Below, one piece after another: positions 26,208 to 41,798 of a stretch of DNA of 64,000 nt; position 1 is the stretch's first letter; the number at the start of each line of letters is the position of its first letter. The DNA comes from an uncultured Streptosporangiaceae bacterium (GTDB lineage: Bacteria > Actinomycetota > Actinomycetes > Streptosporangiales > Streptosporangiaceae), in the NCBI GenBank assembly GCA_964412845.1, contig CAYPQM010000002.1:14497-78496 (forward strand), written 5' to 3'. Made by a program: the position numbers and the translations under genes. Under the pieces are notes generated by a model, which saw nothing but the letters and a program-made list of their open reading frames with translations, searched no databases and was not told where the DNA came from.

Positions 26208-26275
26208 AATGTGCCTTTTCGGTGTGAGGTAAGGAAGACCGGTGCGTATGCCACGATCCGGATCGTGAACAGATG

Positions 26276-30970: not shown

Positions 30971-31041
30971 GCCGGTCACCTCCAAGTGCTGATGTCGGGA
31001 AATAGGTGGCTGTGCGTGGCGGCTGTTCCGGGCTGGGCTGG

Positions 31042-31350
31042 CTACGGAACGGCCGCCTTCGTCTTGCGGCGGGCTTCGCGTTGGACTGCCTTGTCGTAGG
31101 ACTTGGCCGGGGTCTCCCGCCGCGGCACAAGGGGCTCCCGGGCCTCGACGCGGTTCTCGCGGCGCAGCTTTTCGCGGTAGGCGCGCGCCTCGGCCCGGAG
31201 GAAACGCGGGTCGCGTCCGTTTCCGGCCCAGTAGAAGGGCACCCGGCCCTCGGTCACGAGCAGCTCCACGTGGCTGACCGGCTTCCCGAGGAACTCGGCG
31301 AACTGCTCCTTGGTCAGGTCGGGAAGGTCGTCATCGCTGGTGTGGCTCAT
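31042..31350 (-). CDS. Excisionase/MerR-like HTH DNA-binding protein (Xis candidate)
   Basis: LTKEQFAEFLGKPVSHVELLVTEGRVPFYWAG...PRFLRAEARAY with a basic tail. Positioned next to the immunity region. Confidence 0.6.
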   Translation of the reverse strand: MSHTSDDDLPDLTKEQFAEFLGKPVSHVELLVTEGRVPFYWAGNGRDPRFLRAEARAYREKLRRENRVEAREPLVPRRETPAKSYDKAVQREARRKTKAAVP

Positions 31351-31631
31351 CGCGGCGCTCCCACGCGCTCGCGCCGGCGCGGCTCGTCAGTCACCAGCCG
31401 GAACAACCGCTCGTAGGCGGTGCCCGGCTTGACCCCGGTGCCGGTGGCGACGTGCATCAGGCCGGAGACCACCTCGATGCCGCAGGCGTCGTGAATGCCG
31501 CGGCTCACGGACGAGGCATCGACGCCGGCCGCGTGGGCGATCTGCTCGTTGGTGTCCAACTTGGCCCTGCGGCCGAGCCATCTCAGGCCCGCAGGGTCGA
31601 TCCGGTGGTGCGCGGGCGCCTTGGATCGCAT
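31347..31631 (-). CDS. Cro-like HTH protein (94 aa), first gene of the early leftward operon
   Basis: MRSKAPAHH... with TNEQIAHAAGVDASSVSRGIH. GGAG lies 10 nt upstream. Divergent from the repressor gene. Confidence 0.6.
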   Translation of the reverse strand: MRSKAPAHHRIDPAGLRWLGRRAKLDTNEQIAHAAGVDASSVSRGIHDACGIEVVSGLMHVATGTGVKPGTAYERLFRLVTDEPRRRERVGAPR

Positions 31632-31658
31632 GACGGTTTGCTCCACAGTTGTGTTGTA

Positions 31659-31869
31659 TGGATGCAATCTCGCATCGCATTGCGTGGATGCAATCTACGC
31701 CGCGTATCCATGCAATGCAACTGGAGCTGGTATTGATACGTGTTCGCAGGTGGCGTGCGTGCGCCCGTTGGCGTGATTTCGCTCTCGCGGTCGGATGCGC
31801 GCGCGGCTAGCCTGACCGCTGGGCGGGTGCGGCGCGGATTTGCGCCCGGGTACCGGGCTCAGATTGCAT
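31659..31869. promoter_or_regulatory. Immunity-region operators: TGGATGCAATCT x2 (31659, 31685), ATGCAAT (31710) and inverted AGATTGCAT (31861)
   Basis: Repeats read directly in the lower-GC divergent intergenic region between the Cro-like and repressor genes. Confidence 0.6.
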
Positions 31870-31903
31870 GTATGCGATGCACGCACGGCGCGAGAGGTCA
31901 CGT

Positions 31904-32353
31904 ATGCCCAGGTTGGACAGCGCGGAACGCAAGAAGGTGTGGCAGGCGTACGTGAAGAGCCGCCTCGACGATTCGGGCCTCAAGCAGTTTGAGCTCGAAG
32001 CCCTCACGGACGGCGTTGTCACCACCACGATGGTCTCGAACTGGGTGACCGGCCGGTCCGGCGTGGAGGCGGAGGCTGCGGCGCTCTTCGCGCTGGCGAC
32101 GAACTCCCCCGTGGGGGAAGCGCTCGAGGCTGCCGGCTACGGCAAGTTCGCCGAGATCGTCGCGTCCCAGATGGCACCACAGGCGGATCCGCGAATCACC
32201 CGGCTGCTGGACGACCCGCTCTTGACGGAGGAGGACCGGTCGGACTTCCGGGAGCTGCTTCAGCGTCGGCAGAACCGCCTTGCCGTCGAACTCGTCGCGA
32301 TCCTTGTCGAGATGGTGAAGACGCGCCAGTCGGAGTCGAGCAGGCAGGAATAG
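31904..32353 (+). CDS. Probable immunity repressor (149 aa, HTH N-terminus)
   Basis: MPRLDSAERKKVWQAYVKSRLDDSGLKQFELEALTDGVVTTTMVSNWVTGRS. GAGAGG lies 7 nt upstream. On the same strand as int and opposite to the early genes. Confidence 0.65.
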   Translation: MPRLDSAERKKVWQAYVKSRLDDSGLKQFELEALTDGVVTTTMVSNWVTGRSGVEAEAAALFALATNSPVGEALEAAGYGKFAEIVASQMAPQADPRITRLLDDPLLTEEDRSDFRELLQRRQNRLAVELVAILVEMVKTRQSESSRQE

Positions 32354-32376
32354 ACCCTTGCACAGCCATGATCAAC

Positions 32377-32396
32377 GGTGCACTTTTCTGGTGCAC
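32377..32396 (+). repeat. attP left arm-type sites (ACGGTGCAC and TCTGGTGCAC)
   Basis: Two direct copies 13 bp apart, just after the repressor stop. Confidence 0.55.
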
Positions 32397-32472
32397 GGCC
32401 CGGGAGAACTTGGGCGAAGTTCGGGGAACATGGACGATGATCGGCGTCTCAGCGCCCTGATCAGCAGAAGTT

Positions 32473-32499
32473 AAGGGGGTTCAAGTCCCCCCTCGGACA
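32473..32499 (+). other. attP core: T-arm plus 3' acceptor strand of a tRNA (tRNA-Leu-like), not a complete tRNA
   Basis: GGGGGTTCAAGTCCCCC-CTCGGAC-A. No complementary 5' acceptor (GTCCGAG), D-arm or anticodon arm lies upstream. Confidence 0.65.
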
Positions 32500-32555
32500 C
32501 TTTGCTGAGCTCCTGAACTGCATGTTTGCAGTCAGGGGCTTTACACTTTCGGAAT

Positions 32556-32576
32556 CTGGTGCACCGTCTGGTGCAC
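32556..32576 (+). repeat. attP right arm-type sites (TCTGGTGCAC x2)
   Basis: Two direct copies 12 bp apart, upstream of the int start. Confidence 0.55.
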
Positions 32577-32638
32577 CTCCGAGTGAGCGCCATACGAAAG
32601 CCGGTCCACCGACGGTCCACTCGTCGTACGTTCCAAAT

Positions 32639-34048
32639 ATGGCGTGGATCGAGACTACCGAGCGCAAGGCCAAGCCGGGGCAGAAGAAGAAGCCCCTCTC
32701 CTACCATGTCCGCTGGCGCCAAGGCGGCGCCCGGGACGGCGGCAGCGAGGTCGAGACCTTCCGGGACGAGAAGGAGGCCGAACACTTCAAGGCCGCAGTC
32801 AACCTCGCCGGTGACCAGTACCCCCCCAACTTCATCCCGAAAATCGGCTGGGTCACGCCCGACGTGTACAAGGCGTTCCTCGTCGACGTCGAGGCCGCCG
32901 AGACGGAAGCCGAGCAGCCACCGCCGCCCGAGACGATCGGCGCGTTCGCCCGGAAGCTCGTACTGAGCATGACCAAGGTCGGGCGGGGCGGAAAGAAGAA
33001 GTACCTACGGATAATCGCTCTCCACATCAATCCCTGGTGGGGATCCCTCCCGATCAATGACGAGGCAACCCTCAACATGATCGGCATCGGCACGTGGATC
33101 AACGATCTGCTGGACGGCAAATCACCCCCCGTCGACCAGACGCCGCAAGATCCGCACCCGAAGCGCACGAAGCTCAAGCCGAAGACCGCCCGGAACATCC
33201 ACGGTCTCTTCTTCGCGATCATCCAGACCGCGCTGGAGATGAAGCTGCGGGCCGACAACCCGTGCCTGAAGACACAGCTGCCGAACGTCGATGACGGCGA
33301 AGGCGACTGGGAGATGGTCTTCCTGTCCCCCGAGGAGTACGGCATGATCCGTCGCCACATGCGCGCCGACGCGGTGGATCTCACGGACCTACTTGTCGGC
33401 ACCGGGGCTCGCTACTCAGAGGCCACGGGCTTCCGAAAGCGCGACCACGTCCATGACGAGACCGGCCGACCCTGGCTCAACGTGCGCAAGGCGTGGAAGA
33501 ACGAGGCCGGCAACTGGGTCTTGAGCAAGCCCAAGACGCGGAAGTCCGTACGCGGGCTCGTTCTCACCGCAAGCCAGGACGAACTGGTTGCCAGACTCAC
33601 GGAGGGCAAGCAGCCCGACGACCTGGTCGTCACGAACCGGGGTGGCAACCGATGGATTCACCAGACCTACTACACACAGTGCTGGCGCCCGGCGGTCTAT
33701 TGCGCGGTCCGCTGCGAACGGCACAGGAACGCCGACCTGGCCGCGGGTATCGGACGTCGCGGCTATCGGTACCTGCTTTCCGCGCACATCGTGCCCTGTG
33801 GATGTCCGGGCACGCTCACGAAGGTCCCGCGCATCCACGACCTACGGCACACTCACGTAGCGTGGCTGATCGCCAAGAAGGTCCCGGTGAAGGCGATCCA
33901 GGAGCGGCTCGGCCATCGATCGAGCCAGACTACGTTGGACCGCTACGGGCACCTGCTGGATGAGGTCGTCGACGACGTCCAGGCTGCAGTCGACGTGATG
34001 ATGGAGCGGGCAGCCGTGGACGTGGCCCAGCTGCCCGCCGCAGCCTAG
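32639..34048 (+). CDS. int: Tyrosine integrase (469 aa)
   Basis: Start is MAWIETTERKAKPGQKKKPLSYHVRW. C-terminal catalytic region TGARYSE...HDLRHTHVAWL...LGHRSSQTTLDRYGHL. Confidence 0.9.
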   Translation: MAWIETTERKAKPGQKKKPLSYHVRWRQGGARDGGSEVETFRDEKEAEHFKAAVNLAGDQYPPNFIPKIGWVTPDVYKAFLVDVEAAETEAEQPPPPETIGAFARKLVLSMTKVGRGGKKKYLRIIALHINPWWGSLPINDEATLNMIGIGTWINDLLDGKSPPVDQTPQDPHPKRTKLKPKTARNIHGLFFAIIQTALEMKLRADNPCLKTQLPNVDDGEGDWEMVFLSPEEYGMIRRHMRADAVDLTDLLVGTGARYSEATGFRKRDHVHDETGRPWLNVRKAWKNEAGNWVLSKPKTRKSVRGLVLTASQDELVARLTEGKQPDDLVVTNRGGNRWIHQTYYTQCWRPAVYCAVRCERHRNADLAAGIGRRGYRYLLSAHIVPCGCPGTLTKVPRIHDLRHTHVAWLIAKKVPVKAIQERLGHRSSQTTLDRYGHLLDEVVDDVQAAVDVMMERAAVDVAQLPAAA

Positions 34049-34332
34049 TCGCTGGACTCGGTCAGCGCGCCACGGAGCTTCAGCAAGCGCTGGTCGGCAC
34101 GGTCCTCGGCATCGGTCAGTGCCCACTTGACGTCCGTCACGTGGGCCCGGCCTAATCGTGCGACCGCATAGCCCACCGTCAGCGCCAGCGCGAGGGCGTC
34201 GGCCAGGTCTGCGACCTCGCCGCTCCTCGGCGTCGTCGGCAACCACAGCGTGATCACTGCCGATACCGCCCACGCCACCGCCACGGCCGGACCGCCGATC
34301 CTGCGGAAAATGCGAACAACAACTTCGGACAT
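34045..34332 (-). CDS. Small membrane protein (95 aa)
   Basis: Track ORF with hydrophobic segments. Convergent with int, overlapping it by 4 nt. Confidence 0.55.
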   Translation of the reverse strand: MSEVVVRIFRRIGGPAVAVAWAVSAVITLWLPTTPRSGEVADLADALALALTVGYAVARLGRAHVTDVKWALTDAEDRADQRLLKLRGALTESSD

Positions 34333-34577
34333 CGGGTTGTCTCCCCACAGCCTGAACTGCCTCTACTTGCCCCCAAGTGAACGACACGCTACGCAGCGCG
34401 TACCAGCGACGCGATCACCAACACAGAGACACTTTTCGAACTCGGGACGTTTCGGAATACCCTGACATACGGCGCCTTTCATCGATATTTGATTCTCCAA
34501 CGACACAGGGCTCTGACGTGGCAGTGTGGTGCGACGCGCCAGGGGACGCGGTCGGATCCAGGGGAGGGCACGGCGGC

Positions 34578-35432
34578 ATGGCGGGCATGCAGTGGAGCGA
34601 TACACGGATACGGGGTGCGGGCCACGTGGTAGAGGTGCTCGCGGTCTCATGGCGTGGCTCTTCCCTGGCCGCACTGAAAAACGGACCGTTGTCTCCCCCG
34701 GAGCTGCTTGCCGTCTTCAAGACAGTGCAGCCGTCGACCGTGCCGGTTTTCGGACCGCATGCGGTCTACATCGAATGTGTCAAGCGGCACCTGGCCGTGC
34801 TGGCCCGCGGCGGTCTACTCGACGTCGGGCCGCTGAACGGCGGTCGCCGGCAGTACCTGCTCACGCCGTTTGCCCGCGCGATGCTCGATGCCGCAGAGCA
34901 GACTGCGGACTATGGCGTGCGGGTTTACGACTGGTTGGTCGACGTCGGCCGCCAGTCCCGCAAGATCAGCACATCCCTGTCCGCGCGGGACTTCGAGCCC
35001 GCGGTCCTGGGCATGTCCGAGTCGGAGCGCTTCCGTTGGCGCGCGGTCTTGTTGATCTTCGCGCGGTTGCTTGGCCATCGCTGGTCGTTCACAGTTCTGG
35101 CAATGCTGGCCGACGGCCCAGCACGGTTTTCCTCGCTGCTGGAGCGCGCAGGCAGCCTTCTGCCAGCCGCTCCAACATCCGCCTCGACGACCGTACGCCT
35201 CGGCCGGTCCACCCTGACCAACCGACTGGAGTACCTACGCAGTGTCGGACTGGTCGAGAAGGTCGACGACTCGGCTCATCGCAACCCGGCGCGGCCCCCG
35301 GGCTCCAGGGAGGTGGCCTATGTCCTCACGGACGGTGGCCGAGATCTTCTGGAGAACTTGGAAGGCATCGCTGAATTCGGCGTCCTGCACGATGCGGCAC
35401 TCGTCAAGGCGGTTCGAGCCCTAACCCCGTAG
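34578..35432 (+). CDS. HxlR-like winged-helix regulator, apparently two wHTH modules (284 aa; start uncertain)
   Basis: RLLGHRWSFTVLAMLADGPARFSSLLE...LTNRLEYLRSVGLVEK, plus a degenerate N-terminal copy. GGGGAGGG lies upstream of ATG 34578. Confidence 0.65.
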   Translation: MAGMQWSDTRIRGAGHVVEVLAVSWRGSSLAALKNGPLSPPELLAVFKTVQPSTVPVFGPHAVYIECVKRHLAVLARGGLLDVGPLNGGRRQYLLTPFARAMLDAAEQTADYGVRVYDWLVDVGRQSRKISTSLSARDFEPAVLGMSESERFRWRAVLLIFARLLGHRWSFTVLAMLADGPARFSSLLERAGSLLPAAPTSASTTVRLGRSTLTNRLEYLRSVGLVEKVDDSAHRNPARPPGSREVAYVLTDGGRDLLENLEGIAEFGVLHDAALVKAVRALTP

Positions 35433-35506
35433 CGCTGACGGCACGCGCTCTTCCCCCTACGATGAGTGCTGACGTACAACCGTAGGCGGCTCGCTTAGGG
35501 GGAACC

Positions 35507-36724
35507 ATGCAGGACGCTGCGGATCTCAATGCGCTTCAGCTGCCCTTCCCGCCAGGGCCCGATGGCGGCCCTCCCCCCCTGTACGCCGAGCTCCGGCAGC
35601 GGTGCCCGGTGACCCACGTGACAACGCCGGCCGGGGACGACGTCGTGCTCCTGCTCACCGCGGACGATGCACGCTACCTCTACGAGGACCCCGACCGGCT
35701 ACTGTCCCGGAACCTGCGCAGGCCAGGCGCACCCCGGTACGTCGACGGCGCCGACCCCACGATGGTTCCGGGCACGATGATGAACGAGGACGACCCCGAG
35801 CACCTCCGGCTACGCCGGGCGTGCGCCAGGTGGTTCACACCGCGAGCAGTGGCCGGCTACCGCGACATGCTCGTCGGCATCGCGGAGGACTTCGCGGATT
35901 CGCTGACGTCCTGCTCCAGCCCAGTGGACATCGTGCCGATACTGGCCGCTCCGCTCCCAGTCAGAGTGATCAGCAGGGTGATCGGTTTTCCCGAGGACGA
36001 CGACGTCGTCCTGTCGGCCTTGTCCTCGACGATCCTGTCGACCAGCACCTCCGACGCCGAGCAACGCATCGCCGCTCGCGCTGAGTTCGTCAGCTACATC
36101 CGCGAGATCCTCGACTGGCAGCGGCGGGAGGGCCCGGCGGATACGCTGCTTGCTCACGTCACCGCAGAGAGCGACCGCGGCGCCGGCCTGACCGAGGCCG
36201 AGCTGATCCAGTCGCTGCTCACAGTGATCCTGGCCGGCCACGAAACCACCGCGCACGTAATCGCCCGCGGCGTCCTAAGATTCCTACGGACCGGCGTCTG
36301 GAGCCAACTGGCCGCCGATCCCTCGATCGTGCCGAGCGCCGTGGAGGAGCTACTCAGAATTGACGTGCCGGGCCACGGTGCGATCCTGCGCCTGACAATG
36401 GAAGACGTCGAACTGCCATCCGGCGTGACGATACCTGCGGGGACCGGGCTCCTGGCCCCGACTGTGGTGCACAACCACGACCCGGACCGCTACCACGATC
36501 CGGACCAGTTCGTGCTCGGCCGGGAGAGCCCCCACCTGACTTTCGGCGACGGCACCCATGTCTGTCTCGGCGAGTCCCTCGCGATCGCCGAGCTGGAGGC
36601 TGTCTTCACAATCCTCCCTCCGCGTTTCCCCGATCTCCGAGTTGCCGCTGCGCCTGACGCAGTGAGATGGAGCGATCCGACACTCAAGATCAACGGTCCG
36701 ACTCGGCTGCTGGTCGCTTGGTAG
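35507..36724 (+). CDS. Cytochrome P450 monooxygenase
   Basis: I-helix LAGHETT, ExxR VEELLR and heme loop FGDGTHVCLGESLA. Confidence 0.95.
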   Translation: MQDAADLNALQLPFPPGPDGGPPPLYAELRQRCPVTHVTTPAGDDVVLLLTADDARYLYEDPDRLLSRNLRRPGAPRYVDGADPTMVPGTMMNEDDPEHLRLRRACARWFTPRAVAGYRDMLVGIAEDFADSLTSCSSPVDIVPILAAPLPVRVISRVIGFPEDDDVVLSALSSTILSTSTSDAEQRIAARAEFVSYIREILDWQRREGPADTLLAHVTAESDRGAGLTEAELIQSLLTVILAGHETTAHVIARGVLRFLRTGVWSQLAADPSIVPSAVEELLRIDVPGHGAILRLTMEDVELPSGVTIPAGTGLLAPTVVHNHDPDRYHDPDQFVLGRESPHLTFGDGTHVCLGESLAIAELEAVFTILPPRFPDLRVAAAPDAVRWSDPTLKINGPTRLLVAW

Positions 36725-36774
36725 GACGCTGGTGCGAACAGGGCGTTGAGGCAACGAAACTCGCGTTTCTCACG

Positions 36775-37287
36775 CTAGGCAGCTCCCGAAACCGCGTCCA
36801 ATCCGAGCCCCCAGGGGAACGGCTTGCTCTGGTTCCGGTCCTCGCCGAGGACGATGTCCACTCCGTCCCCACGGAGGTACGCCACCGAGCGATCAAACGC
36901 GGAATGAGCGGCCTGCCACGAATTCAGGTGGGGCAGCGCCGCCAGCGGTACTGACTTGCCGACGCCCTCTGTAATCAGGCCTAGGGCCAGAGTGTCGGCG
37001 ATCCCCGCGGCCCACTTGTTGATCGTGTTGAAGGAGGCCGGAGCCACCAGGATCGCGCTCGCCGGCGGCAGGACGTCGGGCTCTCCGGGGCGCTTGTATC
37101 GGAACCGGACGGGGTGCCCCGTCAGCGCTGCTAGGGCTGGCAGTTGGTCCTCCAGCCACACCGCTGCTGTCGGTGTCAGAATCAAGCACACATCCCAGCC
37201 GCGGGCCTTCGCCCGCTCGACCAGATCAGCGATCTCAAGCACCGGCGGTGTAGCACAGCCAACGAGGTACAGAACAGGTTGAGTCAC
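36775..37287 (-). CDS. HFCD-family flavoprotein (CoaC/EpiD-like), 170 aa, GTG start
   Basis: VLYLVGCATPPVLEIADLVERAKARGWDVCLILTPTA... and ILVAPASFNTINKWAAGIADTLALGL. GTGA overlap with the XRE regulator stop. Confidence 0.8.
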   Translation of the reverse strand: MTQPVLYLVGCATPPVLEIADLVERAKARGWDVCLILTPTAAVWLEDQLPALAALTGHPVRFRYKRPGEPDVLPPASAILVAPASFNTINKWAAGIADTLALGLITEGVGKSVPLAALPHLNSWQAAHSAFDRSVAYLRGDGVDIVLGEDRNQSKPFPWGLGLDAVSGAA

Positions 37288-38453
37288 AGGGCTACTCCAG
37301 CGCGCAGCGCGAGTGCGCGCAAACCGCGTCCATCCGCTGGCGTCTGTTCGGTGATCAGATCGGCGATGACCGCCCGCGCCAGGTTCCATGACCGGACTGT
37401 CGCCGGGTCCTCCCGTTCGGCATCCAGCAGCAGTCGTAGGGCTGTGTCGGGTTTGCCGGCGCGCTGGGCCGAGCGGGCCGTGTCCACCAGGTGGTGGATA
37501 CGACGCTCCCTGGGCAACGCGGCGTAGCCGCGGGGATCGATCTGCATGACAGCCTGGAGGGCCTGGTCGTAGAGACCGAGATCGCCAAGTATCGAAGCCT
37601 CGTAGACCGAGACGTTGGTGATGTTGAACGTGCTCAGGCGGTGGTTCGCATCGGGGGCGATCAGCGCAGCCAGAGCGCGGCCTTGCTCGATCATCAGGGT
37701 CGCCAGCCCGGGATCGGGAAGGCTGCCCGCCGCGTAGGCCGCCTTCAGGTACACCATCCCGAGCGCAGACACCCCGTCGTCTCCCAGCCCGCGCAGATCG
37801 CCCCCGTACCGATCGATGACGTCCTGAGCCAGTCCGAGGCCGACGTCCGGGCGTCCCGATGCGGTGGCGGCGTAGACGGCGCTCTGGGTAGCGAGCGCAA
37901 TCCCGATGGGGTCGCCCGCGGCTTCGGCCTTCAACACGCCCTCGTGGCCGGCTGCCCATCCGCCCACCGCGTCGCCGAGCGTGGTGAGCGTGACAGCGGC
38001 CAGGTGGCAGACATCGGCGAGCTGCGCGAGCGCGCGCGGCTCCCCAGCGCCGCCCTCGCGGGCCCGGGCCGCGTTGATCAGGCGCGGCAGCAGGGCCACC
38101 GCGTCGTGCCAGCGTCCTGCGTGGAACGCGTGGTAGCCGTATGTGGTCTGTTGGAGGACGTCGAGTCCCGGGTCCTGTTGTGCGGCCGGGGTGAGCAGAG
38201 CGGCCCTGACCTCGTCTGCGGACGTGTCGTCACTACCGTCCGGGTCGTCGTCGACGAGGACGGCCAGTGGAACAGCGAGGGTGCGAGCCAGGCTTTTCAG
38301 CACGCTGAGACGCGGGTCGGTCTGGAGGCCGCCGCCCTCGAAGCTCTTGACCCACGGCAGGCTCATACCGAGCGCGGTCGCGAGCTGTTGCTGCGTCAGG
38401 CCGCGCTGAACCCGCAGTGCCTTGACACGTGGTCCGATACCGAGCTCTGCCAT
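37284..38453 (-). CDS. XRE-family HTH regulator with a long helical (TPR-like) C-terminal domain (389 aa)
   Basis: MAELGIGPRVKALRVQRGLTQQQLATALGMSLPWVKSFEGG..., followed by about 300 aa of Ala/Leu-rich helical repeats. Confidence 0.85.
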   Translation of the reverse strand: MAELGIGPRVKALRVQRGLTQQQLATALGMSLPWVKSFEGGGLQTDPRLSVLKSLARTLAVPLAVLVDDDPDGSDDTSADEVRAALLTPAAQQDPGLDVLQQTTYGYHAFHAGRWHDAVALLPRLINAARAREGGAGEPRALAQLADVCHLAAVTLTTLGDAVGGWAAGHEGVLKAEAAGDPIGIALATQSAVYAATASGRPDVGLGLAQDVIDRYGGDLRGLGDDGVSALGMVYLKAAYAAGSLPDPGLATLMIEQGRALAALIAPDANHRLSTFNITNVSVYEASILGDLGLYDQALQAVMQIDPRGYAALPRERRIHHLVDTARSAQRAGKPDTALRLLLDAEREDPATVRSWNLARAVIADLITEQTPADGRGLRALALRAGVAL

Positions 38454-38537
38454 ATCAAGACGGTATAGGACTCGTATACCCACGGTGAGCGTCTTTGCCG
38501 ATACCGTCCAAACTACCAGGTCAGAGCGGAGGGCGCC

Positions 38538-38807
38538 GTGGTGGACGAGCTCGAACAATGGCGCGTTGAAGGACGCGTGGCCAGGGCTGTCAAGAACGTG
38601 CAGGAGTCCCTCACGCGGCTGCAAGCCGACGGGCAGGAACTCGCCACCGCCGTCAACGAGGCCCGCGCCCTCGGCATTTCGCCTCAGCACGCTGGGTCGA
38701 GTGCCCTGTCCTGGTGCTGGTTTGGGAATGGCTGCGCACAACGTATGGCCCCACCTCGACGAGGAGAGCATGATGCCCCCGCCCCTACGTCAACTTGCAC
38801 GCGATGA
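38538..38807 (+). CDS. Possible small protein divergent from the XRE gene (coiled-coil-like N-terminus; 3' end doubtful)
   Basis: Track ORF. The first ~55 aa are protein-like. The tail looks out of frame and overlaps the next candidate. Confidence 0.3.
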   Translation: MVDELEQWRVEGRVARAVKNVQESLTRLQADGQELATAVNEARALGISPQHAGSSALSWCWFGNGCAQRMAPPRRGEHDAPAPTSTCTR

Positions 38808-38970
38808 ATCCGGCCGCATCGGCGAGATCATGGGATCTCCCCAGCCCAACTCGCGTCTCGTCGCGCTGCGCCCTCCCGGCGGTGGCCTCGAATGGAATGT
38901 CCCTGAGGAGTCCATCACACGGGTTGATATCGACGGGAACCCGCTTCAGTCGCCCCAGGACGATGCATGA
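38770..38970 (+). CDS. Possible small protein (66 aa; alternative start 38728)
   Basis: MMPPPLRQLARDESGRIGEIMG... in the frame of track ORF 38422..38970. ATGA overlap with the next gene. Confidence 0.3.
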   Translation: MMPPPLRQLARDESGRIGEIMGSPQPNSRLVALRPPGGGLEWNVPEESITRVDIDGNPLQSPQDDA

Positions 38971-39266
38971 GCCAGCGACCGACGCCTGACGACGTCACCC
39001 TCTTCGGCGGTCGCCAAACGTGCCGTGCTGATCGCCTGGCCGTCGGCACATGTATCTCAGCTGGCTGGACCTGTGGGCCCATCGCCGAGCTGCGCCGCGG
39101 CGTACCCATCACTCACGAAGGCGAGGTCGTCCAACGTGTCAGTGCACGTATCAAGGACGATGACCAGTGGCATACCTGGTGGCCCGGTGACCGCGTCTAC
39201 CTCGAGCCCCCGGCTCACCTGCTCCCGCTCCTGGCGCCGCCTGCCGCGCCCACGATGCCATCGTAG
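38967..39266 (+). CDS. Hypothetical protein (99 aa)
   Basis: Track ORF. Confidence 0.45.
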   Translation: MSQRPTPDDVTLFGGRQTCRADRLAVGTCISAGWTCGPIAELRRGVPITHEGEVVQRVSARIKDDDQWHTWWPGDRVYLEPPAHLLPLLAPPAAPTMPS

Positions 39267-39383
39267 CCGGACGTAAGTCTGTGCCGCCGGGCTCGTCTTC
39301 GTCCAGCGAGTTTCCAACTACGACGACTACGGCTGGCCAACAAGCGCGTTGGGCGGCTTGGTGGCCGGGAACGCAAAGAAGCC

Positions 39384-39414
39384 GCCCGCCCTCCCCTTGA
39401 CGGGGAGGGCGGGC
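39384..39414 (-). terminator. Strong intrinsic terminator ending the late operon (13-bp stem GCCCGCCCTCCCC / GGGGAGGGCGGGC)
   Basis: Perfect stem with a 5-nt loop. On the minus strand it is followed by CTTCTTTGCGTT. It lies 15 nt after the collagen-like gene stop. Confidence 0.75.
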
Positions 39415-39428
39415 GATGCAGTGGTTTG

Positions 39429-40115
39429 CTATGAGCGCGGACGCTCCGGCGGGAATGCCAGCGCGCCGAACAGGAGCAGGAGGGGCCAGGCGGGTACGCC
39501 TTGCTCGTGGGTATCGGCAGCTCGGATCGCGGCTGGGGACGCTGACGGCGTGCCGGGGTCGGATGCCTCGCAGACCACCGCGGCGTGCTCGTTGATCGTC
39601 TCCGGCGTCGCGGTGTAGCCGTCAGGACATTGGGGCCCGGCGGGCCCGGACGGTCCGGTAGGGCCCGGGTTCCCGGCGGGGCCCTGTTCGCCGGCCGGGC
39701 CCGATGGCCCCGGCGGTCCAGGCTCGCCTTCCGCGCCGGCGGGACCGGCAGCTCCTTCCGCGCCGGTCGGTCCGGCTGGCCCGGCCGGGCCCGGAGATCC
39801 CGCTGGGCCCGCTGTTCCCGGCGCGCCGGATGGGCCAGCAGCGCCGGCGGGACCGGATTGGATCCGCTCGATGATCTGCTGTGGGGCGGGCTGGGATGGT
39901 GCGATCCCGTGCTGCTTCAGCTGTTCCTGGGCTCCGGTCAGGTTCACGGACAGGTCGGAGATCGTCTGGGCCTGGCGTGTTTGCTGCTGGCGCAGCCCTT
40001 GCAGCTGGTGCGAGGCCGCGCCGAGTTCGGCCAGCATGAAGCCCAGCACGATGCCCACGGCCGTGACCAGGACGGCCACGACCGCGTTCCACCAGTGGCG
40101 GCGGATCCAGTCCAT
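39429..40115 (-). CDS. Membrane-anchored collagen-like repeat protein
   Basis: N-terminal TM ([21 protein letters not shown]), a coiled coil, 25 uninterrupted G-X-Y triplets (39630..39854) and a hydrophobic C-terminus. Confidence 0.8.
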
Positions 40116-40480
40116 CAGTGGATGCCCTTCGACTGCCCCAGGAGCGTAACGACCACCAGCGCGAGCGCGGCCAGCGCGCTGATCAGCCCGATGGCCTTCT
40201 GCCAGGTGAGCTCCGCGCGAGAGCTGGTCTCGTCGCGGAGATCACGGATCTCTTTGCGTACTTCGTCAACGTCGCCGGACAGCGTCTGCCCGAGGTCCTT
40301 CGTGCTCTGCTCCACGCGCGCGATGTGCTCCACGAGCGCCTTGTGCTGGACGTTCCAGAGGGCGACCGGTAGGAGTTCGGTAGCCAGCCGCGTGATCTGT
40401 GCCGCGAGGGCCTGGTCTGCGGTTTCCAGCCGAGCGATGGCGCGGCCGGCTTCGCGCGGGGTCAGCCCGTCGTCGGTCAC
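40115..40480 (-). CDS. Lysis-cassette membrane protein (holin-like; coiled coil plus C-terminal TM)
   Basis: Directly downstream of the endolysin gene. C-terminal TM is [20 protein letters not shown]. Confidence 0.6.
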
Positions 40481-40497
40481 CAGATCTCCAGACGCGG

Positions 40498-41472
40498 TTA
40501 CGGGGTGGCTAAGGCTGTGGCCAGGTGCGCGACGACGGCGGTCGCGATCTGGTCCGCGGTTGCCCCGGCAATCAGCAGCGGGGCCAGTGCGGCGGCCAGC
40601 GCCTTCGCGTCGACGGCCGGGGGCTGCTGGATCTTGACGGCCAGTGCGTTGACGGCGTCGCGGGCCTGCTTGGCGTACAGGGCCGCGGCCCGGGCGCCGC
40701 CGTCGGCCCAGATCAGCGCGGCGTCGTCGTCGAACTGGCCATTCGCCGGGAAGTCAGCCGCGATCTCCGGCCACTTCTGGCCGATGGTGGCTGGGATGGT
40801 GCCCATGAGGTCTCCGGAGGTGGTGGCGGTCGCTGTCGGCGTTTCCGCGCTGAGGAGGGTGAGGAGTTGCGCGACGGTGCCCCGGAAGGCGTTGTAGTCG
40901 AGCGCGCGACCGCCGTCGGTGGCCTGGTTGGTGTACTGGTACAGCGCGGGGGTCACACCGCCGTAGGCGTTCCAGCCCGAGGCCTTGTCCCCGGGGTACA
41001 GGTGCGTGGGGCTGCCGGCCCCCCCGGGGTAGGCCGAGGAGATGAGTCCCAGGCCGCGCGAGGTCAGGCCGCTCAGGCTCGGCGACCCGAGCTCCTGCCA
41101 GTACCAGTGCGGGAGGTAGACCAGGCGCAGCCGCAGTCCCGCCGCCTTCGCCGCGTCGGCGTAGGCCAGCACCTGGCTCAGGGTGGGTTTGGACGAGCCG
41201 GACGGCTCGACGTCGAGCATGCCCGGCAGGGTCGGGTCGCCCACACACGCCTTGGTGTGCGCGATCTGCGCCGGGACGCTCTCGCTGGTCAGGAAGTGGT
41301 ACCAGACGAAGGGCCGCTTCAGGCTCGCGGCCTGCCGCCGCCAGCCCTGGTACGCGGAGTCGGTGTAGTACGTGCCCTCGCTCGCCTTGGCGATGACGAA
41401 GGAGGCGGCCGCGAGGCGCGACAGGTCCAGCCCGGCCTGATAGGCGGAGATGTCGGGTCCGTGGATCGTCAC
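40498..41472 (-). CDS. Endolysin: GH25 muramidase with a C-terminal (wall-binding?) domain (324 aa, GTG start)
   Basis: VTIHGPDISAYQAGLDLSRLAAASFVIAKASEGTYYTD (GH25 signature). GTGA overlap upstream. Confidence 0.85.
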   Translation of the reverse strand: MTIHGPDISAYQAGLDLSRLAAASFVIAKASEGTYYTDSAYQGWRRQAASLKRPFVWYHFLTSESVPAQIAHTKACVGDPTLPGMLDVEPSGSSKPTLSQVLAYADAAKAAGLRLRLVYLPHWYWQELGSPSLSGLTSRGLGLISSAYPGGAGSPTHLYPGDKASGWNAYGGVTPALYQYTNQATDGGRALDYNAFRGTVAQLLTLLSAETPTATATTSGDLMGTIPATIGQKWPEIAADFPANGQFDDDAALIWADGGARAAALYAKQARDAVNALAVKIQQPPAVDAKALAAALAPLLIAGATADQIATAVVAHLATALATP

Positions 41473-41798
41473 GGCGTGGCCTCCTGGGGCGGTTCGTCTC
41501 CTGCTGCGGGAAAAGGCCCTGCGAGTCGTGCGGCGGCGGCGATCCCGGCGGCCGAGATGCGGGCGGGGACCCGGGGATGGTGCCGCTTGCAGGTCTTGAA
41601 CGGTGTGCCCGGGACCGGGTGGATGGCTGGCCGCCAGCAGCGCTTCGGGTGGTCCACGTGGCAGAGGTGCCGCTTGTAGTGGGCGGCAAGGGTGCCGATG
41701 ATGGCGAGTTCGCCGAGGTCGGAGCCCATGCCGGACCACCACATGTACCAGTAGCCTGATCCGCTGTCCAGGCCGAGCACGTGCGCGAGCCAGTTCAC
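41469..41798 (-). CDS. Hypothetical protein with a hydrophobic/aromatic N-terminus and a His/Cys-rich middle (109 aa)
   Basis: Track ORF. Could be a holin-type protein on position alone. Confidence 0.6.
   Translation of the reverse strand: MNWLAHVLGLDSGSGYWYMWWSGMGSDLGELAIIGTLAAHYKRHLCHVDHPKRCWRPAIHPVPGTPFKTCKRHHPRVPARISAAGIAAAARLAGPFPAAGDEPPQEATP

What the first reader, a model, noticed from the sequence alone, without database searches (positions are those of the whole stretch)
34045..39414. Five-kb cargo island between the late-operon terminator and int: HxlR-like regulator, cytochrome P450, HFCD flavoprotein, XRE-TPR regulator and small ORFs
The late operon ends at a 13-bp-stem terminator (39384..39414) and int ends at 34048. 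The DNA between them carries no phage-type function. It corresponds to the position of the lambda b region. Its contents are:
- A small membrane protein.
- A tandem-wHTH HxlR-like regulator.
- A bona fide P450 (AGHETT, EELLR, FGDGTHVCLG) with no adjacent ferredoxin or reductase.
- A CoaC/EpiD-family flavoprotein.
- A 389-aa XRE regulator with a TPR-like sensor domain.
- Three doubtful small ORFs.

To my knowledge P450 genes are rare in bacteriophages. Pairing one with an HFCD-type flavin enzyme under two dedicated regulators suggests a lysogenic-conversion module that modifies a small molecule or peptide. Candidates include a host signalling molecule, an antibiotic or a RiPP-like substrate.
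Basis: partly seen in the sequence, partly recalled or inferred. Interest (0 to 1): 0.72.

Follow-up and report, generated by a model that had tools for sequence, protein, structure and literature searches.

The report
Phage-lineage P450 module beside integrase
A large temperate phage of soil actinobacteria carries, between its integrase and its lysis genes, an intact cytochrome P450 with its own unusual double-winged-helix regulator; four more diverged related phages keep the pair, which makes it a rare phage-specific P450 lineage, while the neighbouring flavoprotein and XRE regulator are a separate cassette.

Summary
In detail: all the genes listed lie between int (stop 34048) and the late-operon terminator (39382-39416). 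The DNA is phage, not host chromosome. An intact attP lies beside int, phage genes lie on both sides, and two independently assembled ~95.3-kb contigs have different end points.

- **Module A** is a small membrane protein, a 284-aa tandem winged-helix HxlR-like protein and a CYP107-like P450. It sits at the same position in all five diverged phages examined. P450 identity is 49-65% to the four relatives examined and up to 76% across the clade of ten. All catalytic motifs are invariant.
- **Module A's closest relatives** are distant: 40% or less to the window protein, and 45% at most between any clade member and an outside protein. The one near outsider whose context was read is cellular.
- **Module B** is three small ORFs divergent from an XRE-TPR regulator that is translationally coupled to a flavoprotein. 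It occurs without the P450 in another phage and in Catenulispora and Pseudofrankia chromosomes.

The flavoprotein lacks the HFCD catalytic histidine, and no Cys-terminated precursor was seen, so a P450/HFCD RiPP pathway is not supported.

The most likely function is a ligand-controlled small-molecule monooxygenase, probably prophage-expressed, that uses host redox partners. The substrate is unknown. No P450 relative of this protein was found in 50,697 GenBank phage records or in IMG/VR.

The parts
32473..32500 (+). attP core. It looks like the 3' end of a tRNA (T-arm GGGGG-TTCAAGT-CCCCC plus the 3' acceptor strand). It is flanked by four direct (T/C)GGTGCAC repeats at 32377, 32390, 32558 and 32570, which are probably arm-type integrase sites.
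   Evidence: Sequence read. The core occurs once in the window, even allowing 3 mismatches. Three of the five TGGTGCAC copies in the 64-kb window lie within 190 bp of it. The same 28-nt core lies about 1.3 kb from a weak int-like match in an uncultured Actinomycetota MAG.
32640..34048 (+). Tyrosine integrase, 469 aa.
   Evidence: Pfam Phage_integrase. Gene call in the source contigs. It is not detectably similar to the integrases of the related phages L014 and L015.
34045..34332 (-). Module A: small 95-aa membrane protein, tail-to-tail with int.
   Evidence: Two hydrophobic segments. A gene of 98-127 aa on the same strand occupies this position in the other four phages. It is 38% identical to the L022 counterpart and barely alignable to those of L014 and L015.
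34333..34577 (.). Divergent control region upstream of the wHTH gene, with the lowest G+C of the island.
   Evidence: GC by codon position is 0.49-0.63 here. There is one sigma-70-like hit at 34462-34489, which is no more than chance expectation. A CTGACGT motif lies 65 nt upstream of the wHTH start. None of this is proof of function.
34578..35432 (+). Module A: 284-aa tandem winged-helix (HxlR-like) protein, the presumed ligand-responsive regulator of the P450.
   Evidence: The C-terminal domain matches Pfam HxlR. The AF2 model has pLDDT 90.5 and pTM 0.88, with two wHTH domains at residues 8-128 and 148-282. Foldseek matches tandem-wHTH proteins and single HxlR-family proteins such as YodB, HypR and YtfH. 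Only 17 representatives match among 1.84 billion proteins. A gene of 256-302 aa lies directly upstream of the P450 in 5 of 5 phages, with homology shown in four of them.
35507..36724 (+). Module A: CYP107-like cytochrome P450 monooxygenase, 405 aa. I-helix AGHETT is at 36233-36250, ExxR at 36347-36358, and the heme loop FGDGTHVCLG at 36542-36571 (Cys353).
   Evidence: Pfam p450. Motif positions. The motifs are invariant across 10 clade members. The best PDB match is 9KPP/9KPU, assigned to CYP107PW, at 37% identity. Clade members are 49-76% identical to the window protein and 48% or more to each other, while the highest identity between a member and an outsider is 45%.
36775..37287 (-). Module B: 170-aa flavoprotein of Pfam PF02441. 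It has the HFCD-like fold family but lacks the HFCD catalytic His. Its GTG start overlaps the XRE stop (GTGA).
   Evidence: There are 3419 homologues, with the top hits 55-72% identical and found in Catenulispora, Streptomyces, Pseudofrankia and Nocardia. In the profile alignment, EpiD His67 aligns with the family's Glu/Gln, and the His of 7cfu and 6jls aligns with invariant Asp70.
37284..38453 (-). Module B: 389-aa XRE-HTH regulator with an all-helical TPR-like C-terminal domain (RNPP-like architecture).
   Evidence: HTH_31 and HTH_3. The AF2 model has pLDDT 89.3. Foldseek's top PDB match is PlcR, followed by ComR, the phage phi3T Rap and generic TPR proteins, all with weak scores. It is 63-66% identical to Catenulispora proteins.
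38538..38807 (+). Module B: orfA, a small helical protein divergent from the XRE gene. Only the first ~46 codons are conserved.
   Evidence: It is 51-52% identical to the first divergent small gene next to the XRE gene in L014, Catenulispora L020 and phage L104.
38773..38970 (+). Module B: orfB, 65 aa.
   Evidence: Gene call in contigs L004, L006 and L007. It is about 40% identical to the equivalent ORF in L014 and in Catenulispora L020.
38967..39266 (+). orfC, 99 aa, with an ATGA overlap to orfB. This is the least certain gene.
   Evidence: Gene call. GC1/2/3 is 0.71/0.57/0.74. No homologue was found. ORFs of about 100 aa occupy the same place in L014 and in the P0005 contig.
39382..39416 (-). 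Intrinsic terminator that ends the late (lysis) operon and insulates Module B from late read-through.
   Evidence: 15-bp stem with 13 G-C pairs and a T-rich tail.

Best explanation
**What the region is.** The 5.4-kb region is the accessory, lysogeny-side region of a non-integrated temperate siphovirus-like actinophage of about 95 kb. The host is probably close to Catenulispora or Streptomyces. The region is made of two unrelated modules.

**Module A (34045-36724)** is specific to this phage lineage. It comprises a small membrane protein, a single-chain tandem winged-helix HxlR/MarR-type protein and a CYP107-like class I P450.

The proposed mechanism is as follows:
- The tandem-wHTH protein acts as a pseudo-dimeric repressor of the wHTH-P450 transcription unit.
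- It releases the DNA when it binds a small molecule.
- The P450 then draws electrons from the host's ferredoxin and ferredoxin reductase, since the phage encodes none.
- It hydroxylates or otherwise oxidises a lipophilic small molecule, such as a secondary metabolite, a signal or a xenobiotic met by the actinomycete host.
- This benefits the lysogen, or protects phage development.

The unit is transcribed in the direction of int and the CI-like gene and against both lytic operons. It is therefore most likely expressed from the prophage.

**Module B (36775-39266)** is a mobile five-gene cassette: orfC<-orfB<-orfA, divergent from XRE-TPR->flavoprotein. Other temperate actinophages and actinobacterial chromosomes share it. 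It works independently of the P450. It is probably a sensor-regulator with a coupled small redox enzyme. Its flavoprotein is not an EpiD/CoaC-type decarboxylase.

**Shown:** gene identities, intact catalytic motifs, the two-domain wHTH and HTH-TPR folds (predicted models), synteny and conservation across phages, modular independence, and the phage (not host) context.

**Inferred:** repression by the wHTH protein, prophage expression, use of host redox partners, and the nature of the substrate.
For: **Phage context**
- TerL, portal, major capsid, tape measure and endolysin lie on one side. RusA, a DNA methylase, a sigma factor and a PD-(D/E)XK exonuclease-like gene lie on the other.
- A single tRNA-like att core with arm repeats on both sides shows an intact attP.
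- The two ~95.3-kb contigs from different assemblies have break points at window 55808 and 21666, both inside the window. They are 100% identical to the window over the stretch fetched.
- The flanks hold only phage-like genes.

**P450 functional and conserved**
- Pfam score is 71.6 bits.
- AGHETT, ExxR and FxxGxHxCxG are invariant in 10 clade members.
- All five genomic contexts examined place it in the same position, int - small(-) gene - 256-302-aa (+) gene - P450 - ... - lysis. That upstream gene is a shown wHTH homologue in four of them.
- Its identity to L014 and L015 (65% and 55%) equals that of the endolysin (65-67%). The integrases and most early genes give no match or only a weak one.
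- GC3 of the P450 in L014 and L022 (0.89) matches their backbone genes.
- The nearest outgroup, P0011 (40%), sits in a cellular SARP/PALP/MFS context.

**wHTH as the P450's partner**
- It is always immediately upstream on the same strand. The gap is 75 nt here and a 4-nt overlap in the P0005 contig.
- The family is tiny, on the scale of the P450 clade.
- The fold is two HxlR/MarR-like wHTH domains.

**No phage redox partner:**, in line with the statement in PMC9405906 that no viral genome then described encoded one.

**Module B is independent**
- XRE and flavoprotein overlap by GTGA here and by 4 nt in Pseudofrankia and Catenulispora.
- At least 14 contigs appear to carry both genes, judged by matching contig lengths.
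- Phage L104 has the cassette (XRE 63%, flavoprotein 66%, orfA 52%) between int and lysis, with no P450 and no wHTH gene.

**A CI-like repressor is a different gene:** the 149-aa + gene at 31904-32353, whose L104 counterpart carries a weak HTH_3 hit.
Against: - No expression data exist, so transcription in the lysogen is inferred from orientation only.
- No operator was identified. The upstream regions of the four phages do not align, and the CTGACGT motif is inconsistent.
- The substrate is unknown. Similarity to macrolide and polyketide-tailoring CYP107-type enzymes is generic, at 37% or less.
- In the window itself the island has lower GC3 than the backbone. This could mean later acquisition or low expression.
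- The clade is not sharply separated from outside P450s at its most diverged members. P0009 and P0010 reach 45% identity to outside proteins.
- Only five contexts were examined. The other five clade members sit on short contigs that were not inspected.
- Circularity of the 95-kb genome is inferred from contig coordinates and was not checked by end overlap.
Confidence: 0.62

Rival explanations
1. The P450 and an HFCD flavoprotein act together on a peptide or small molecule (RiPP-like tailoring, for example oxidative decarboxylation plus cross-linking), under two dedicated regulators, as one lysogenic-conversion pathway.
For: - The P450 and flavoprotein genes converge within 50 bp.
- The flavoprotein is present next to the P450 in 3 of the 5 phages: the window, L014 and L022.
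- In Pseudofrankia the XRE-flavoprotein pair lies next to a LanB/LanC lanthipeptide cluster.
- Small ORFs are nearby.
Against: - The flavoprotein is absent beside the P450 in 2 of 5 phages. A 99-aa ORF or a GNAT acetyltransferase takes its place.
- The XRE-flavoprotein cassette occurs without a P450 in phage L104 and in Catenulispora.
- The HFCD catalytic His is replaced in the whole family.
- None of the three small + ORFs ends in Cys.
- The 7-codon mini-ORF in the wHTH-P450 gap is not conserved, and the gap vanishes in one relative.
- The RiPP P450 models of NCBIfam score far below their cut-offs.
Confidence: 0.06
2. Chemical counter-defence or signal interference. The P450 is used by the phage, during infection or from the prophage, to inactivate a host-made anti-phage metabolite or an actinomycete signalling molecule. 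The wHTH protein senses that molecule.
For: - The P450 is kept as a phage-lineage gene with a dedicated ligand-type regulator.
- It is as conserved as the endolysin while the integrases differ.
- Its relatives are secondary-metabolite-tailoring P450s.
- From general knowledge, actinomycetes produce anti-phage small molecules such as anthracyclines and aminoglycosides. This was not tested here.
Against: - There is no evidence about the substrate.
- The orientation, against the lytic operons, does not suggest lytic-phase expression.
- PADLOC models give no hit for module A, although that library holds defence systems, not counter-defence genes.
- This is a specific version of the best explanation rather than a true alternative.
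Confidence: 0.15
3. Lysis-lysogeny sensing hub. The RNPP-like XRE-TPR protein is a receptor for a peptide or small-molecule cue. The adjacent enzymes (P450, flavoprotein or GNAT) make or destroy that cue. This would be an actinophage counterpart of arbitrium or Rap-Phr.
For: - The predicted HTH+TPR architecture has PlcR as its best PDB match, with ComR and the phage phi3T Rap among the top hits.
- An XRE-type gene of 389-414 aa is present in four of the five P450 phages and in L104, always between int and lysis. The fifth phage has an unannotated 421-aa gene there.
- Streptomyces phage Ignacio has a distantly similar 416-aa HTH gene between its endolysin and its integrase.
- The enzyme coupled to the large gene is swappable.
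Against: - The fold matches are weak (E about 1e-3, TM 0.3-0.5) and typical of any TPR solenoid. There is no significant match in the viral structure library.
- No secreted-peptide-like ORF was noted in the sequences read. This was by eye, with no signal-peptide prediction run.
- The cassette also sits in ordinary chromosomal surroundings.
- The P450 and the XRE gene are not consistently linked in orientation.
Confidence: 0.08
4. The island is ordinary host chromosome lying between two mobile elements, or the window is a chimeric assembly.
For: - The flavoprotein, XRE protein and g148 have 63-74% identical homologues in Catenulispora genomes.
- Island GC3 is somewhat lower than that of the backbone.
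Against: - There is a single att core with both arm-repeat sets, so attP is intact and no attL/attR pair exists.
- The identical arrangement was assembled independently in at least seven contigs from eight samples and runs at 99.95-100% identity.
- The same synteny appears in four other diverged phages.
- Phage genes lie on both sides and beyond the window.
Confidence: 0.02

Closest known systems
CYP102L1 of Mycobacterium phage Adler, the only bacteriophage P450 named in the papers searched here (Lamb et al. 2019, as summarised in PMC9405906 and PMC11814380)
   Same: Both are cytochrome P450s encoded in the genome of a phage that infects an actinobacterium. Neither phage encodes a redox partner.
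   Different: - Adler's P450 is described as acquired from its Mycobacterium abscessus host.
- The present P450 belongs to a clade of ten whose five examined contexts are all phage. Those five phages are diverged from each other, and the window protein is at most 40% identical to any outside protein.
- It is CYP107-like, not CYP102-like.
- It has a dedicated tandem-wHTH partner.
- tblastn with this P450 found nothing in 50,697 GenBank phage records at E<=1e-3. Adler was therefore not recovered, which shows how distant the two are.
CYP107-type actinobacterial class I P450s (PDB 9KPP/9KPU = CYP107PW, MycG, OleP, PikC, EryF)
   Same: Full-length alignment, with the same acid-alcohol pair (ET), ExxR motif and Cys-ligand loop. 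Identity to CYP107PW is 37% over 394 residues.
   Different: - Identity is below the customary 40% family line to every solved structure.
- The gene sits in a phage, not in a biosynthetic gene cluster.
- No ferredoxin gene is adjacent.
HxlR/DUF24 subfamily of MarR-type winged-helix regulators (YodB, HypR, YtfH)
   Same: The C-terminal domain passes the Pfam HxlR threshold. Each predicted domain superposes on YodB, HypR or YtfH with a target-normalised TM score of about 0.6.
   Different: - Known members are ~110-aa proteins that act as homodimers. This protein is a 284-aa single chain with two divergent wHTH domains, a pseudo-dimer in the manner of SarS or RPC62.
- No conserved redox-sensing Cys is present.
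HFCD flavoproteins (EpiD, MrsD, CoaC/Dfp, AtHAL3a)
   Same: It matches Pfam Flavoprotein PF02441. It has a PASANT-like motif (PASFNT) and a PxMNxxMW-like motif (LPHLNSWQ). Profile hits to 7cfu, 6jls, EpiD and CoaBC range from E = 4e-10 to 2.5e-4.
   Different: - The catalytic His (EpiD His67) aligns with Glu/Gln68 or invariant Asp70, and no His is present there in 12 family members.
- NCBIfam CoaC and CoaBC scores are far below their cut-offs.
- The gene is translationally coupled to an XRE-TPR regulator rather than placed in a CoA or lanthipeptide operon.
RNPP-type HTH-TPR regulators (PlcR, ComR, Rap, AimR)
   Same: The architecture is the same: an N-terminal XRE HTH followed by a helical-repeat sensor domain of about 300 aa. 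The top Foldseek PDB match is PlcR. Like AimR and the phi3T Rap, it is phage-borne.
   Different: - There is no sequence-level match to any RNPP family, and TM scores are low.
- No cognate small secreted peptide gene is evident. The downstream coupled gene encodes a 170-aa flavoprotein.
- The host is an actinobacterium, not a Firmicute.
Prophage accessory (moron or lysogenic-conversion) regions next to int, such as the lambda b region and the central defence loci of temperate mycobacteriophages
   Same: It lies between the late genes and int. Module A is oriented against the lytic operons. A terminator insulates the region, and the content varies among relatives.
   Different: - attP lies on the far side of int, not between the region and int as in lambda.
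- Module A is not a sporadic moron. It is kept across a diverged lineage.

Membership tests
Cytochrome P450 (PF00067), class I bacterial monooxygenase | Cys-ligand loop FxxGxHxCxG | tested here: met
   FGDGTHVCLG at residues 346-355. F346, G347, G349, H351, C353 and G355 are invariant in 10 clade members.
Cytochrome P450 (PF00067), class I bacterial monooxygenase | I-helix (A/G)Gx(E/D)T(T/S) oxygen-activation motif and K-helix ExxR | tested here: met
   AGHETT at 243-248 and E281-x-x-R284, all invariant. Pfam score is 71.6 bits against a cut-off of 22.8.
Cytochrome P450 (PF00067), class I bacterial monooxygenase | Heme binding and catalytic turnover with ferredoxin and ferredoxin reductase | not testable with these tools
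   This needs a CO-difference spectrum and reconstitution. No ferredoxin-like ORF is present in the window or flanks.
CYP107 family (Nelson nomenclature: at least 40% identity to a member) | At least 40% amino-acid identity to a named CYP107 member | tested here: inconclusive
   The best solved relative, CYP107PW (9KPP), is 37% identical. The best non-clade protein in a 5.8-billion-protein collection is 40% identical. No comparison with the curated CYP database was possible.
HxlR-type winged-helix regulators (PF01638) | wHTH domain matching the family profile above the curated threshold | tested here: met
   29.5 bits against a cut-off of 20.8, for the C-terminal domain only. The N-terminal domain is wHTH by the AF2 model and by Foldseek.
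HxlR-type winged-helix regulators (PF01638) | Small (~110 aa) subunit acting as a homodimer, and sequence-specific DNA binding | tested here: not met
   The protein is a 284-aa single chain with two fused, divergent wHTH domains. DNA binding cannot be tested here.
HFCD flavoprotein Cys-decarboxylases (EpiD/CoaC) | Flavoprotein fold with a PASANT-type FMN/substrate motif | tested here: met
   PF02441 at 37.4 bits. PASFNT aligns with EpiD PASANT.
HFCD flavoprotein Cys-decarboxylases (EpiD/CoaC) | Active-site His (EpiD His67, and the equivalent residue in Dfp and AtHAL3a) | tested here: not met
   In the profile alignment His67 falls on Glu68 (Glu or Gln in the family). The His of 7cfu and 6jls falls on invariant Asp70.
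HFCD flavoprotein Cys-decarboxylases (EpiD/CoaC) | Genomic association with a Cys-terminated precursor peptide or with CoaB | tested here: not met
   None of the three small + ORFs ends in Cys. The partner gene is an XRE-TPR regulator in the phages and in 2 of the 3 cellular loci examined.
RNPP quorum-sensing regulators | N-terminal HTH plus a TPR-type peptide-binding domain | tested here: inconclusive
   The AF2 model has this architecture. PlcR is the top PDB match, but at E = 6.9e-4 and TM 0.31-0.41, alongside generic TPR proteins.
RNPP quorum-sensing regulators | Cognate secreted signalling-peptide gene next to the receptor | tested here: not met
   The downstream coupled gene is a flavoprotein. 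The divergent small ORFs look hydrophilic by eye, and no signal-peptide prediction was run.
Temperate-phage accessory (moron-type) module | Located within a phage genome, dispensable in related phages, and separately transcribed | tested here: met
   Phage context. The related phage L104 (endolysin 60%) lacks module A. The orientation opposes the lytic operons and a terminator lies at 39382-39416. Actual transcription was not tested.

The most novel reading that the evidence does not exclude
The wHTH-P450 pair is a phage-evolved chemical tool. It would be a phage-specific P450 lineage, switched on by its substrate through the tandem-wHTH sensor, that inactivates or remodels an actinomycete secondary metabolite or signalling molecule. 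The target could be an anti-phage compound or a developmental or quorum signal. That would make it the first P450-based chemical counter-defence or signal-interference system encoded by a bacteriophage.
Probability: 0.15. Interest if true: 0.85.

Novelty: new variant of a known kind. Interest (0 to 1): 0.6.

Why it matters
Cytochrome P450s are almost unknown in bacteriophages. In the papers searched here the only one named, in Mycobacterium phage Adler, is regarded as a recent capture from its host.

Here a P450 is maintained with intact catalytic residues in all five diverged temperate actinophages examined. It always sits with a private regulator family that has only about 17 representatives among 1.84 billion proteins. 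The window protein is at most 40% identical to any P450 outside the clade. This suggests selection for an oxidative small-molecule activity in the phage-actinomycete relationship, in hosts whose biology is dominated by secondary metabolites and diffusible signals.

The module gives a concrete, clonable entry point of two genes. With it one can ask whether phages chemically edit their host's metabolites.

The analysis also shows that the neighbouring XRE-TPR/flavoprotein cassette is a separate, widespread and uncharacterised mobile module of actinophages and actinobacteria. It deserves study in its own right.

Tried and rejected
- **GenBank phage searches.** Megablast of 30000-42000 against 50,697 records gave no match. 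tblastn of the P450 gave no match. tblastn of the major capsid protein gave only remote hits. No isolated relative therefore exists in that collection.
- **IMG/VR scans.** The P450, the wHTH protein and the P450 alignment found no relatives. The wHTH alignment was too diverse to build a search pattern.
- **Genome-contig scan with the wHTH alignment.** No relatives were found.
- **Metagenome-contig scan with the P450 alignment.** The patterns were too generic. It returned only ordinary P450s at 35% identity or less and none of the phage clade.
- **Rfam on 31000-41000.** No match at E<=1, so the att core is only a tRNA fragment. The same core in the MAG L023 is not a full tRNA either.
- **PADLOC.** No defence-system hit, apart from generic HTH matches of the XRE domain.
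- **Operator search.** Aligning the regions upstream of the wHTH gene in four phages gave no convincing common palindrome. The CTGACGT motif is suggestive but inconsistent.
- **RiPP precursor in the wHTH-P450 gap.** Only a non-conserved 7-codon ORF was found.
- **Bootstrap NJ tree of the P450s.** It timed out and was replaced by an identity matrix.
- **Viral structure library.** No significant match for the XRE-TPR model.
- **Direct proof of circularity.** Contig look-ups did not list the 95-kb contigs for genes near the window ends. Circular permutation therefore rests on coordinate arithmetic.

Full report
**1. What the window is**

The window is high-G+C DNA (0.61-0.75 per kb, mostly 0.65-0.72). 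GC3 analysis shows nearly all well-supported genes on the - strand.
- From 62474 down to 40498 lie the large terminase, portal, head-maturation and major-capsid genes, the tape measure, a large tail protein and a GH25 endolysin.
- From 31667 leftwards lie small early genes, a PD-(D/E)XK (DUF3799) exonuclease-like gene, an ECF-type sigma factor, a large DNA methyltransferase and RusA.
- The finding lies between these two arms.

Upstream of int there is a 28-nt sequence with the shape of a tRNA 3' end: T-arm GGGGG/TTCAAGT/CCCCC plus the 3' acceptor strand, at 32473-32500.
- It occurs only once in the window, even with three mismatches allowed.
- Four direct (T/C)GGTGCAC repeats flank it, two on each side. 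Three of the five TGGTGCAC copies in the 64 kb lie there.
- This is an intact attP with both arms, so the phage is in its non-integrated configuration.

The exact P450 protein is encoded on contigs from several assemblies.
- Two of them are 95,337 bp (JGI) and 95,455 bp (ENA) long.
- Converting their coordinates places their ends at window positions 55808 and 21666. Both lie inside the window, and the first lies inside a gene.
- Both contigs are 100% identical to the window over the 21 kb fetched.
- Two assemblies of nearly equal length with different break points point to a circular or circularly permuted genome of about 95.3 kb. This is an inference, because end overlap was not checked.
- DNA beyond both ends of the window holds only phage-like genes.

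**2. The observation**

All listed genes are present, and their Pfam matches exceed the curated cut-offs.
- The late operon ends with a collagen-repeat membrane protein (39429-40115). A strong terminator follows at 39416..39382 on the - strand, with a 15-bp stem.
- int stops at 34048.
- Gene starts were refined using the source-contig gene calls and homologue alignments: wHTH protein 34578-35432 (284 aa), flavoprotein 36775-37287 (170 aa) and XRE protein 37284-38453 (389 aa).
- The flavoprotein's GTG start overlaps the XRE stop codon (GTGA), so the two are translationally coupled.
- No ferredoxin-type Cys motif lies in a coding frame of the window or of the flanks held.

**3. The P450**

The catalytic signatures are intact: AGHETT (243-248), ExxR (281-284) and FGDGTHVCLG (346-355).

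A search of 5.8 billion proteins found nine further clusters at 49-76% identity, all from metagenomes. After those, identity drops to 40% or less.
- Within this clade of ten, the minimum pairwise identity is 48%.
- The maximum identity between a clade member and an outside protein is 45%, and the median is 33%.
- All catalytic motif residues are invariant within the clade.

The closest solved structures are 9KPP and 9KPU. A 2026 survey of PDB P450 deposits places them in the new subfamily CYP107PW. Identity to them is 37% over 394 residues. Next come MycG, OleP, PikC and other tailoring enzymes. The enzyme is therefore a CYP107-like class I P450. Its formal family assignment remains open.

**4. 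Genomic context of the P450 clade**

All five contexts examined show the same order: the window and the contigs of P0004 (65%), P0005 (62%), P0007 (55%) and P0010 (49%). The order is early genes (-), a ~145-177-aa + gene, int (+), a small - gene, a 256-302-aa + gene, the P450 (+), a variable segment, then the lysis cassette (-).

The closest outgroup, P0011 (40%), sits in a cellular SARP-P450-PALP-MFS locus.

tblastn of window proteins against L014 and L015 gave the following:

| Protein | Identity to L014 / L015 |
|---|---|
| P450 | 65% / 55% |
| GH25 endolysin | 65% / 67% |
| Collagen-like protein | 61% / 54% |
| Holin-like protein | 39% / 42% |
| wHTH protein | 35% / 36% |
| Integrase and early genes | no match at E<=1e-3 |

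The CI-like 149-aa protein gave only a marginal match to L014.

The P450 is thus as conserved as the endolysin and travels with the late end of the genome, while the integration modules have been exchanged.

In L014 and L022 the P450's GC3 (0.89) equals that of backbone genes. In the window the island is somewhat lower, at 0.74-0.82 against 0.86-0.96.

Module A is therefore a long-standing component of this phage lineage, not a recent moron.

**5. The wHTH partner**

The 284-aa protein has a Pfam HxlR match in its C-terminal half.

An exhaustive HMMER scan of 1.84 billion representative proteins found only 17 relatives at E<=1e-3. Fourteen of them are full-length, at 248-304 aa.

An AlphaFold2 model built on these sequences is confident (pLDDT 90.5, pTM 0.88). 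It shows two winged-helix domains at residues 8-128 and 148-282.
- Foldseek matches other tandem-wHTH proteins: 3bz6, RPC62 and SarS.
- Domain by domain, it matches the HxlR-family proteins YodB, HypR and YtfH, with target-normalised TM scores of about 0.6.
- No whole-chain match reaches E<=1e-3.

The gene is always directly upstream of the P450 on the same strand. The gap is 75 nt here and a 4-nt overlap in the P0005 contig.

I infer a single-chain pseudo-dimeric MarR/HxlR-type regulator dedicated to the P450. No common operator could be defined.

**6. The flavoprotein and the XRE protein form a separate cassette**

The flavoprotein family is large, with 3419 hits at E<=1e-3. The top hits are 55-72% identical to the window protein and include proteins from Catenulispora, Streptomyces, Pseudofrankia and Nocardia.

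In Pseudofrankia inefficax and in Catenulispora, a ~396-aa XRE gene precedes the flavoprotein gene with a 4-nt overlap, exactly as in the window. Contig lengths shared between the two hit lists suggest that at least 14 contigs carry both genes. The Catenulispora pair is 63% (XRE) and 68% (flavoprotein) identical to the phage pair.

The small ORFs divergent from the XRE gene are part of the same cassette.
- The first ~46 codons of orfA are 51-52% identical to the first divergent small gene in L014, in Catenulispora and in phage L104.
- orfB is about 40% identical to its counterparts in L014 and Catenulispora.

The decisive context is L104, a ~40-kb temperate phage seen on at least 24 contigs.
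- Its endolysin is 60% identical to the window's.
- It carries only this cassette between int and lysis, with no P450 or wHTH gene. XRE is 63% identical, the flavoprotein 66% and orfA 52%.

Conversely, two P450 phages lack the flavoprotein. L015 has a 99-aa ORF in its place. The P0005 contig has a GNAT acetyltransferase that overlaps a 421-aa gene by 4 nt.

The island is therefore a juxtaposition of two independent modules.

**7. What the module B proteins are**

*Flavoprotein.* A profile of the family matches HFCD structures (7cfu, 6jls, EpiD, CoaBC) at E-values from 4e-10 to 2.5e-4, and the PASANT-like motif is shared.

The catalytic His is missing. EpiD His67 aligns with Glu68 (Glu or Gln in the family). 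The His of 7cfu and 6jls aligns with the invariant Asp70. PDB entry 1g5q, which carries Asn at this position, is from my own knowledge the inactive H67N mutant of EpiD.

NCBIfam CoaC and CoaBC models score far below their cut-offs. The protein has the Flavoprotein fold family but fails a defining feature of Cys-decarboxylases.

*XRE protein.* The AF2 model (pLDDT 89.3) shows an HTH followed by about 15 paired helices.
- The top PDB match is PlcR, with ComR and the phage phi3T Rap also listed.
- Scores are weak (E = 7e-4 and above, TM 0.3-0.5), and generic TPR proteins score equally well.
- The viral structure library gives no significant match.
- A distant sequence match (21% over 228 aa, E = 3e-4) links the helical domain to gp24 or gp25 of eight Streptomyces phages (Ignacio and relatives). 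In Ignacio this is a 416-aa HTH protein encoded between the endolysin and the integrase.

Large HTH-plus-helical-repeat regulators at this position thus seem to be a recurrent feature of temperate actinophages.

The phage's CI-like repressor is more probably the 149-aa + gene at 31904-32353. It faces away from the early operon, and its L104 counterpart (33% identical) has a weak HTH_3 hit.

**8. Mechanism**

The best-supported reading is as follows.
- Module A is a ligand-controlled monooxygenase unit, probably expressed from the prophage.
- The wHTH protein represses the unit until it binds a small molecule.
- The P450 then uses the host's ferredoxin and reductase to oxidise a lipophilic small molecule.

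Points in favour are the orientation (with int and the CI-like gene, against both lytic operons), the terminator that isolates the region, the conservation of the catalytic residues, and the private regulator.

The substrate and the benefit are not known. Detoxification of, or interference with, a secondary metabolite or signal is the most economical guess for hosts of this kind.

Module B works independently. Its role, whether sensor-regulator with a redox enzyme or a defence- or TA-like unit, remains open. PADLOC gives no specific hit.

- None of the three small + ORFs ends in Cys.
- The wHTH-P450 gap holds no conserved mini-ORF.
- The HFCD catalytic His is absent.
- The two enzymes are not consistently linked.

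**9. Novelty**

The papers found here name a single bacteriophage P450, CYP102L1 of Mycobacterium phage Adler, and describe it as acquired from its host. They state that no redox partner had been found in any viral or phage genome then described (PMC9405906 and PMC11814380).

No relative of the present P450 was found in 50,697 GenBank phage records or in IMG/VR.

A P450 lineage kept with a private tandem-wHTH regulator in all five diverged temperate actinophages examined is therefore new as a variant. The broader categories, viral P450s and prophage accessory modules, are known.

**10. Host**

The best cellular homologues of the XRE protein, the flavoprotein and the late gene g148 come from Catenulispora, at 63-74% identity. 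The att core recurs in an uncultured Actinomycetota MAG, about 1.3 kb from a weak integrase-like match. A Catenulispora- or Streptomyces-like host is likely but unproven.

**11. Limits**
- No expression, biochemical or host data are available.
- Only five of the ten clade members could be placed in a genomic context.
- Circularity of the genome is inferred.
- Operator sites were not identified.
- The structural matches for the XRE protein are weak.

Noticed in passing
window 16265-17551, 17591-18760, 18826-20445 (-): Three consecutive paralogous genes, each with a C-terminal DUF6745 domain (E about 1e-33 to 1e-35). This is an unusual tandem triplication in the early arm of the phage.
   Followed up: no
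window 23585-26848 (-): A cluster of RusA, a 580-aa DNA methyltransferase, a GntR-like regulator (25809-26207) and an ECF-type sigma factor (26276-26848). The phage carries its own sigma factor.
   Followed up: no
window ~5239-6079 (-), seen as L012 7195-8035: Two adjacent small genes whose products match the RNA polymerase alpha C-terminal domain (PF03118). A DnaB_C helicase gene lies nearby (window ~7671-8555).
   Followed up: no
L008/L010 1-1744, about 8-10 kb right of the window end and upstream of the terminase: A tRNA/RNA-repair-like gene set: T4-type RNA ligase 1, RlaP, and a polynucleotide kinase-phosphatase (AAA_33 + HAD_PNKP).
   Followed up: no
window 1882-3273 (-) and L012 11421-21392 (left of the window): A GT2-family glycosyltransferase and a NUDIX hydrolase. 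Further left lie a PCMT-like methyltransferase, a PhdYeFM antitoxin-like gene and a DUF6292 gene. This is a second accessory region of the ~95-kb genome.
   Followed up: no
window 62328-62409 (+): ARAGORN calls a tRNA-Ala(GGC) inside the large-terminase ORF on the opposite strand. It is probably a false positive.
   Followed up: no
window 41795-42241 (-): The late gene g148 is 74% identical to part of a gene in a Catenulispora contig (L020:13548-13973) and 79% identical to its L022 counterpart. This is far higher than for neighbouring genes, and it hints at the host.
   Followed up: partly
window 31677-31905: Two long imperfect inverted repeats (33 and 27 nt arms) lie in the divergent region between the early operon and the 149-aa CI-like gene. 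They may be an operator or switch region.
   Followed up: no
window 34513 and 35469; L022 and L015 equivalents: CTGACGT lies 65 nt upstream of the wHTH start and 38 nt upstream of the P450 start, with only 8 copies in 64 kb. It also lies 51 nt upstream of the P450 in L022 and 116 nt upstream of the wHTH gene in L015, but is absent in L014. It may be a regulator site.
   Followed up: partly
contig of P0005 (JGI 3300050821), genes 9521-11337: In the place of XRE->flavoprotein, this phage has a 421-aa gene overlapping by 4 nt a GNAT acetyltransferase. The pattern is a large regulator-like gene coupled to a swappable small enzyme, reminiscent of toxin-antitoxin or defence modules. No DNA was available to test homology.
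   Followed up: no
L023 7280-7307 (MAG CAVYQT010000003.1, uncultured Actinomycetota): The identical 28-nt att core lies about 1.3 kb from a weak integrase-like match. No full tRNA was detected there by ARAGORN or Rfam. It may be another element that uses the same attachment site.
   Followed up: partly
L107 (Streptomyces phage Ignacio NC_073483, gp25 at 19616-20866): An isolated temperate Streptomyces phage has a 416-aa HTH protein, followed by small ORFs, between its endolysin and its serine integrase. The protein is distantly similar to the helical domain of the XRE protein studied here.
   Followed up: partly
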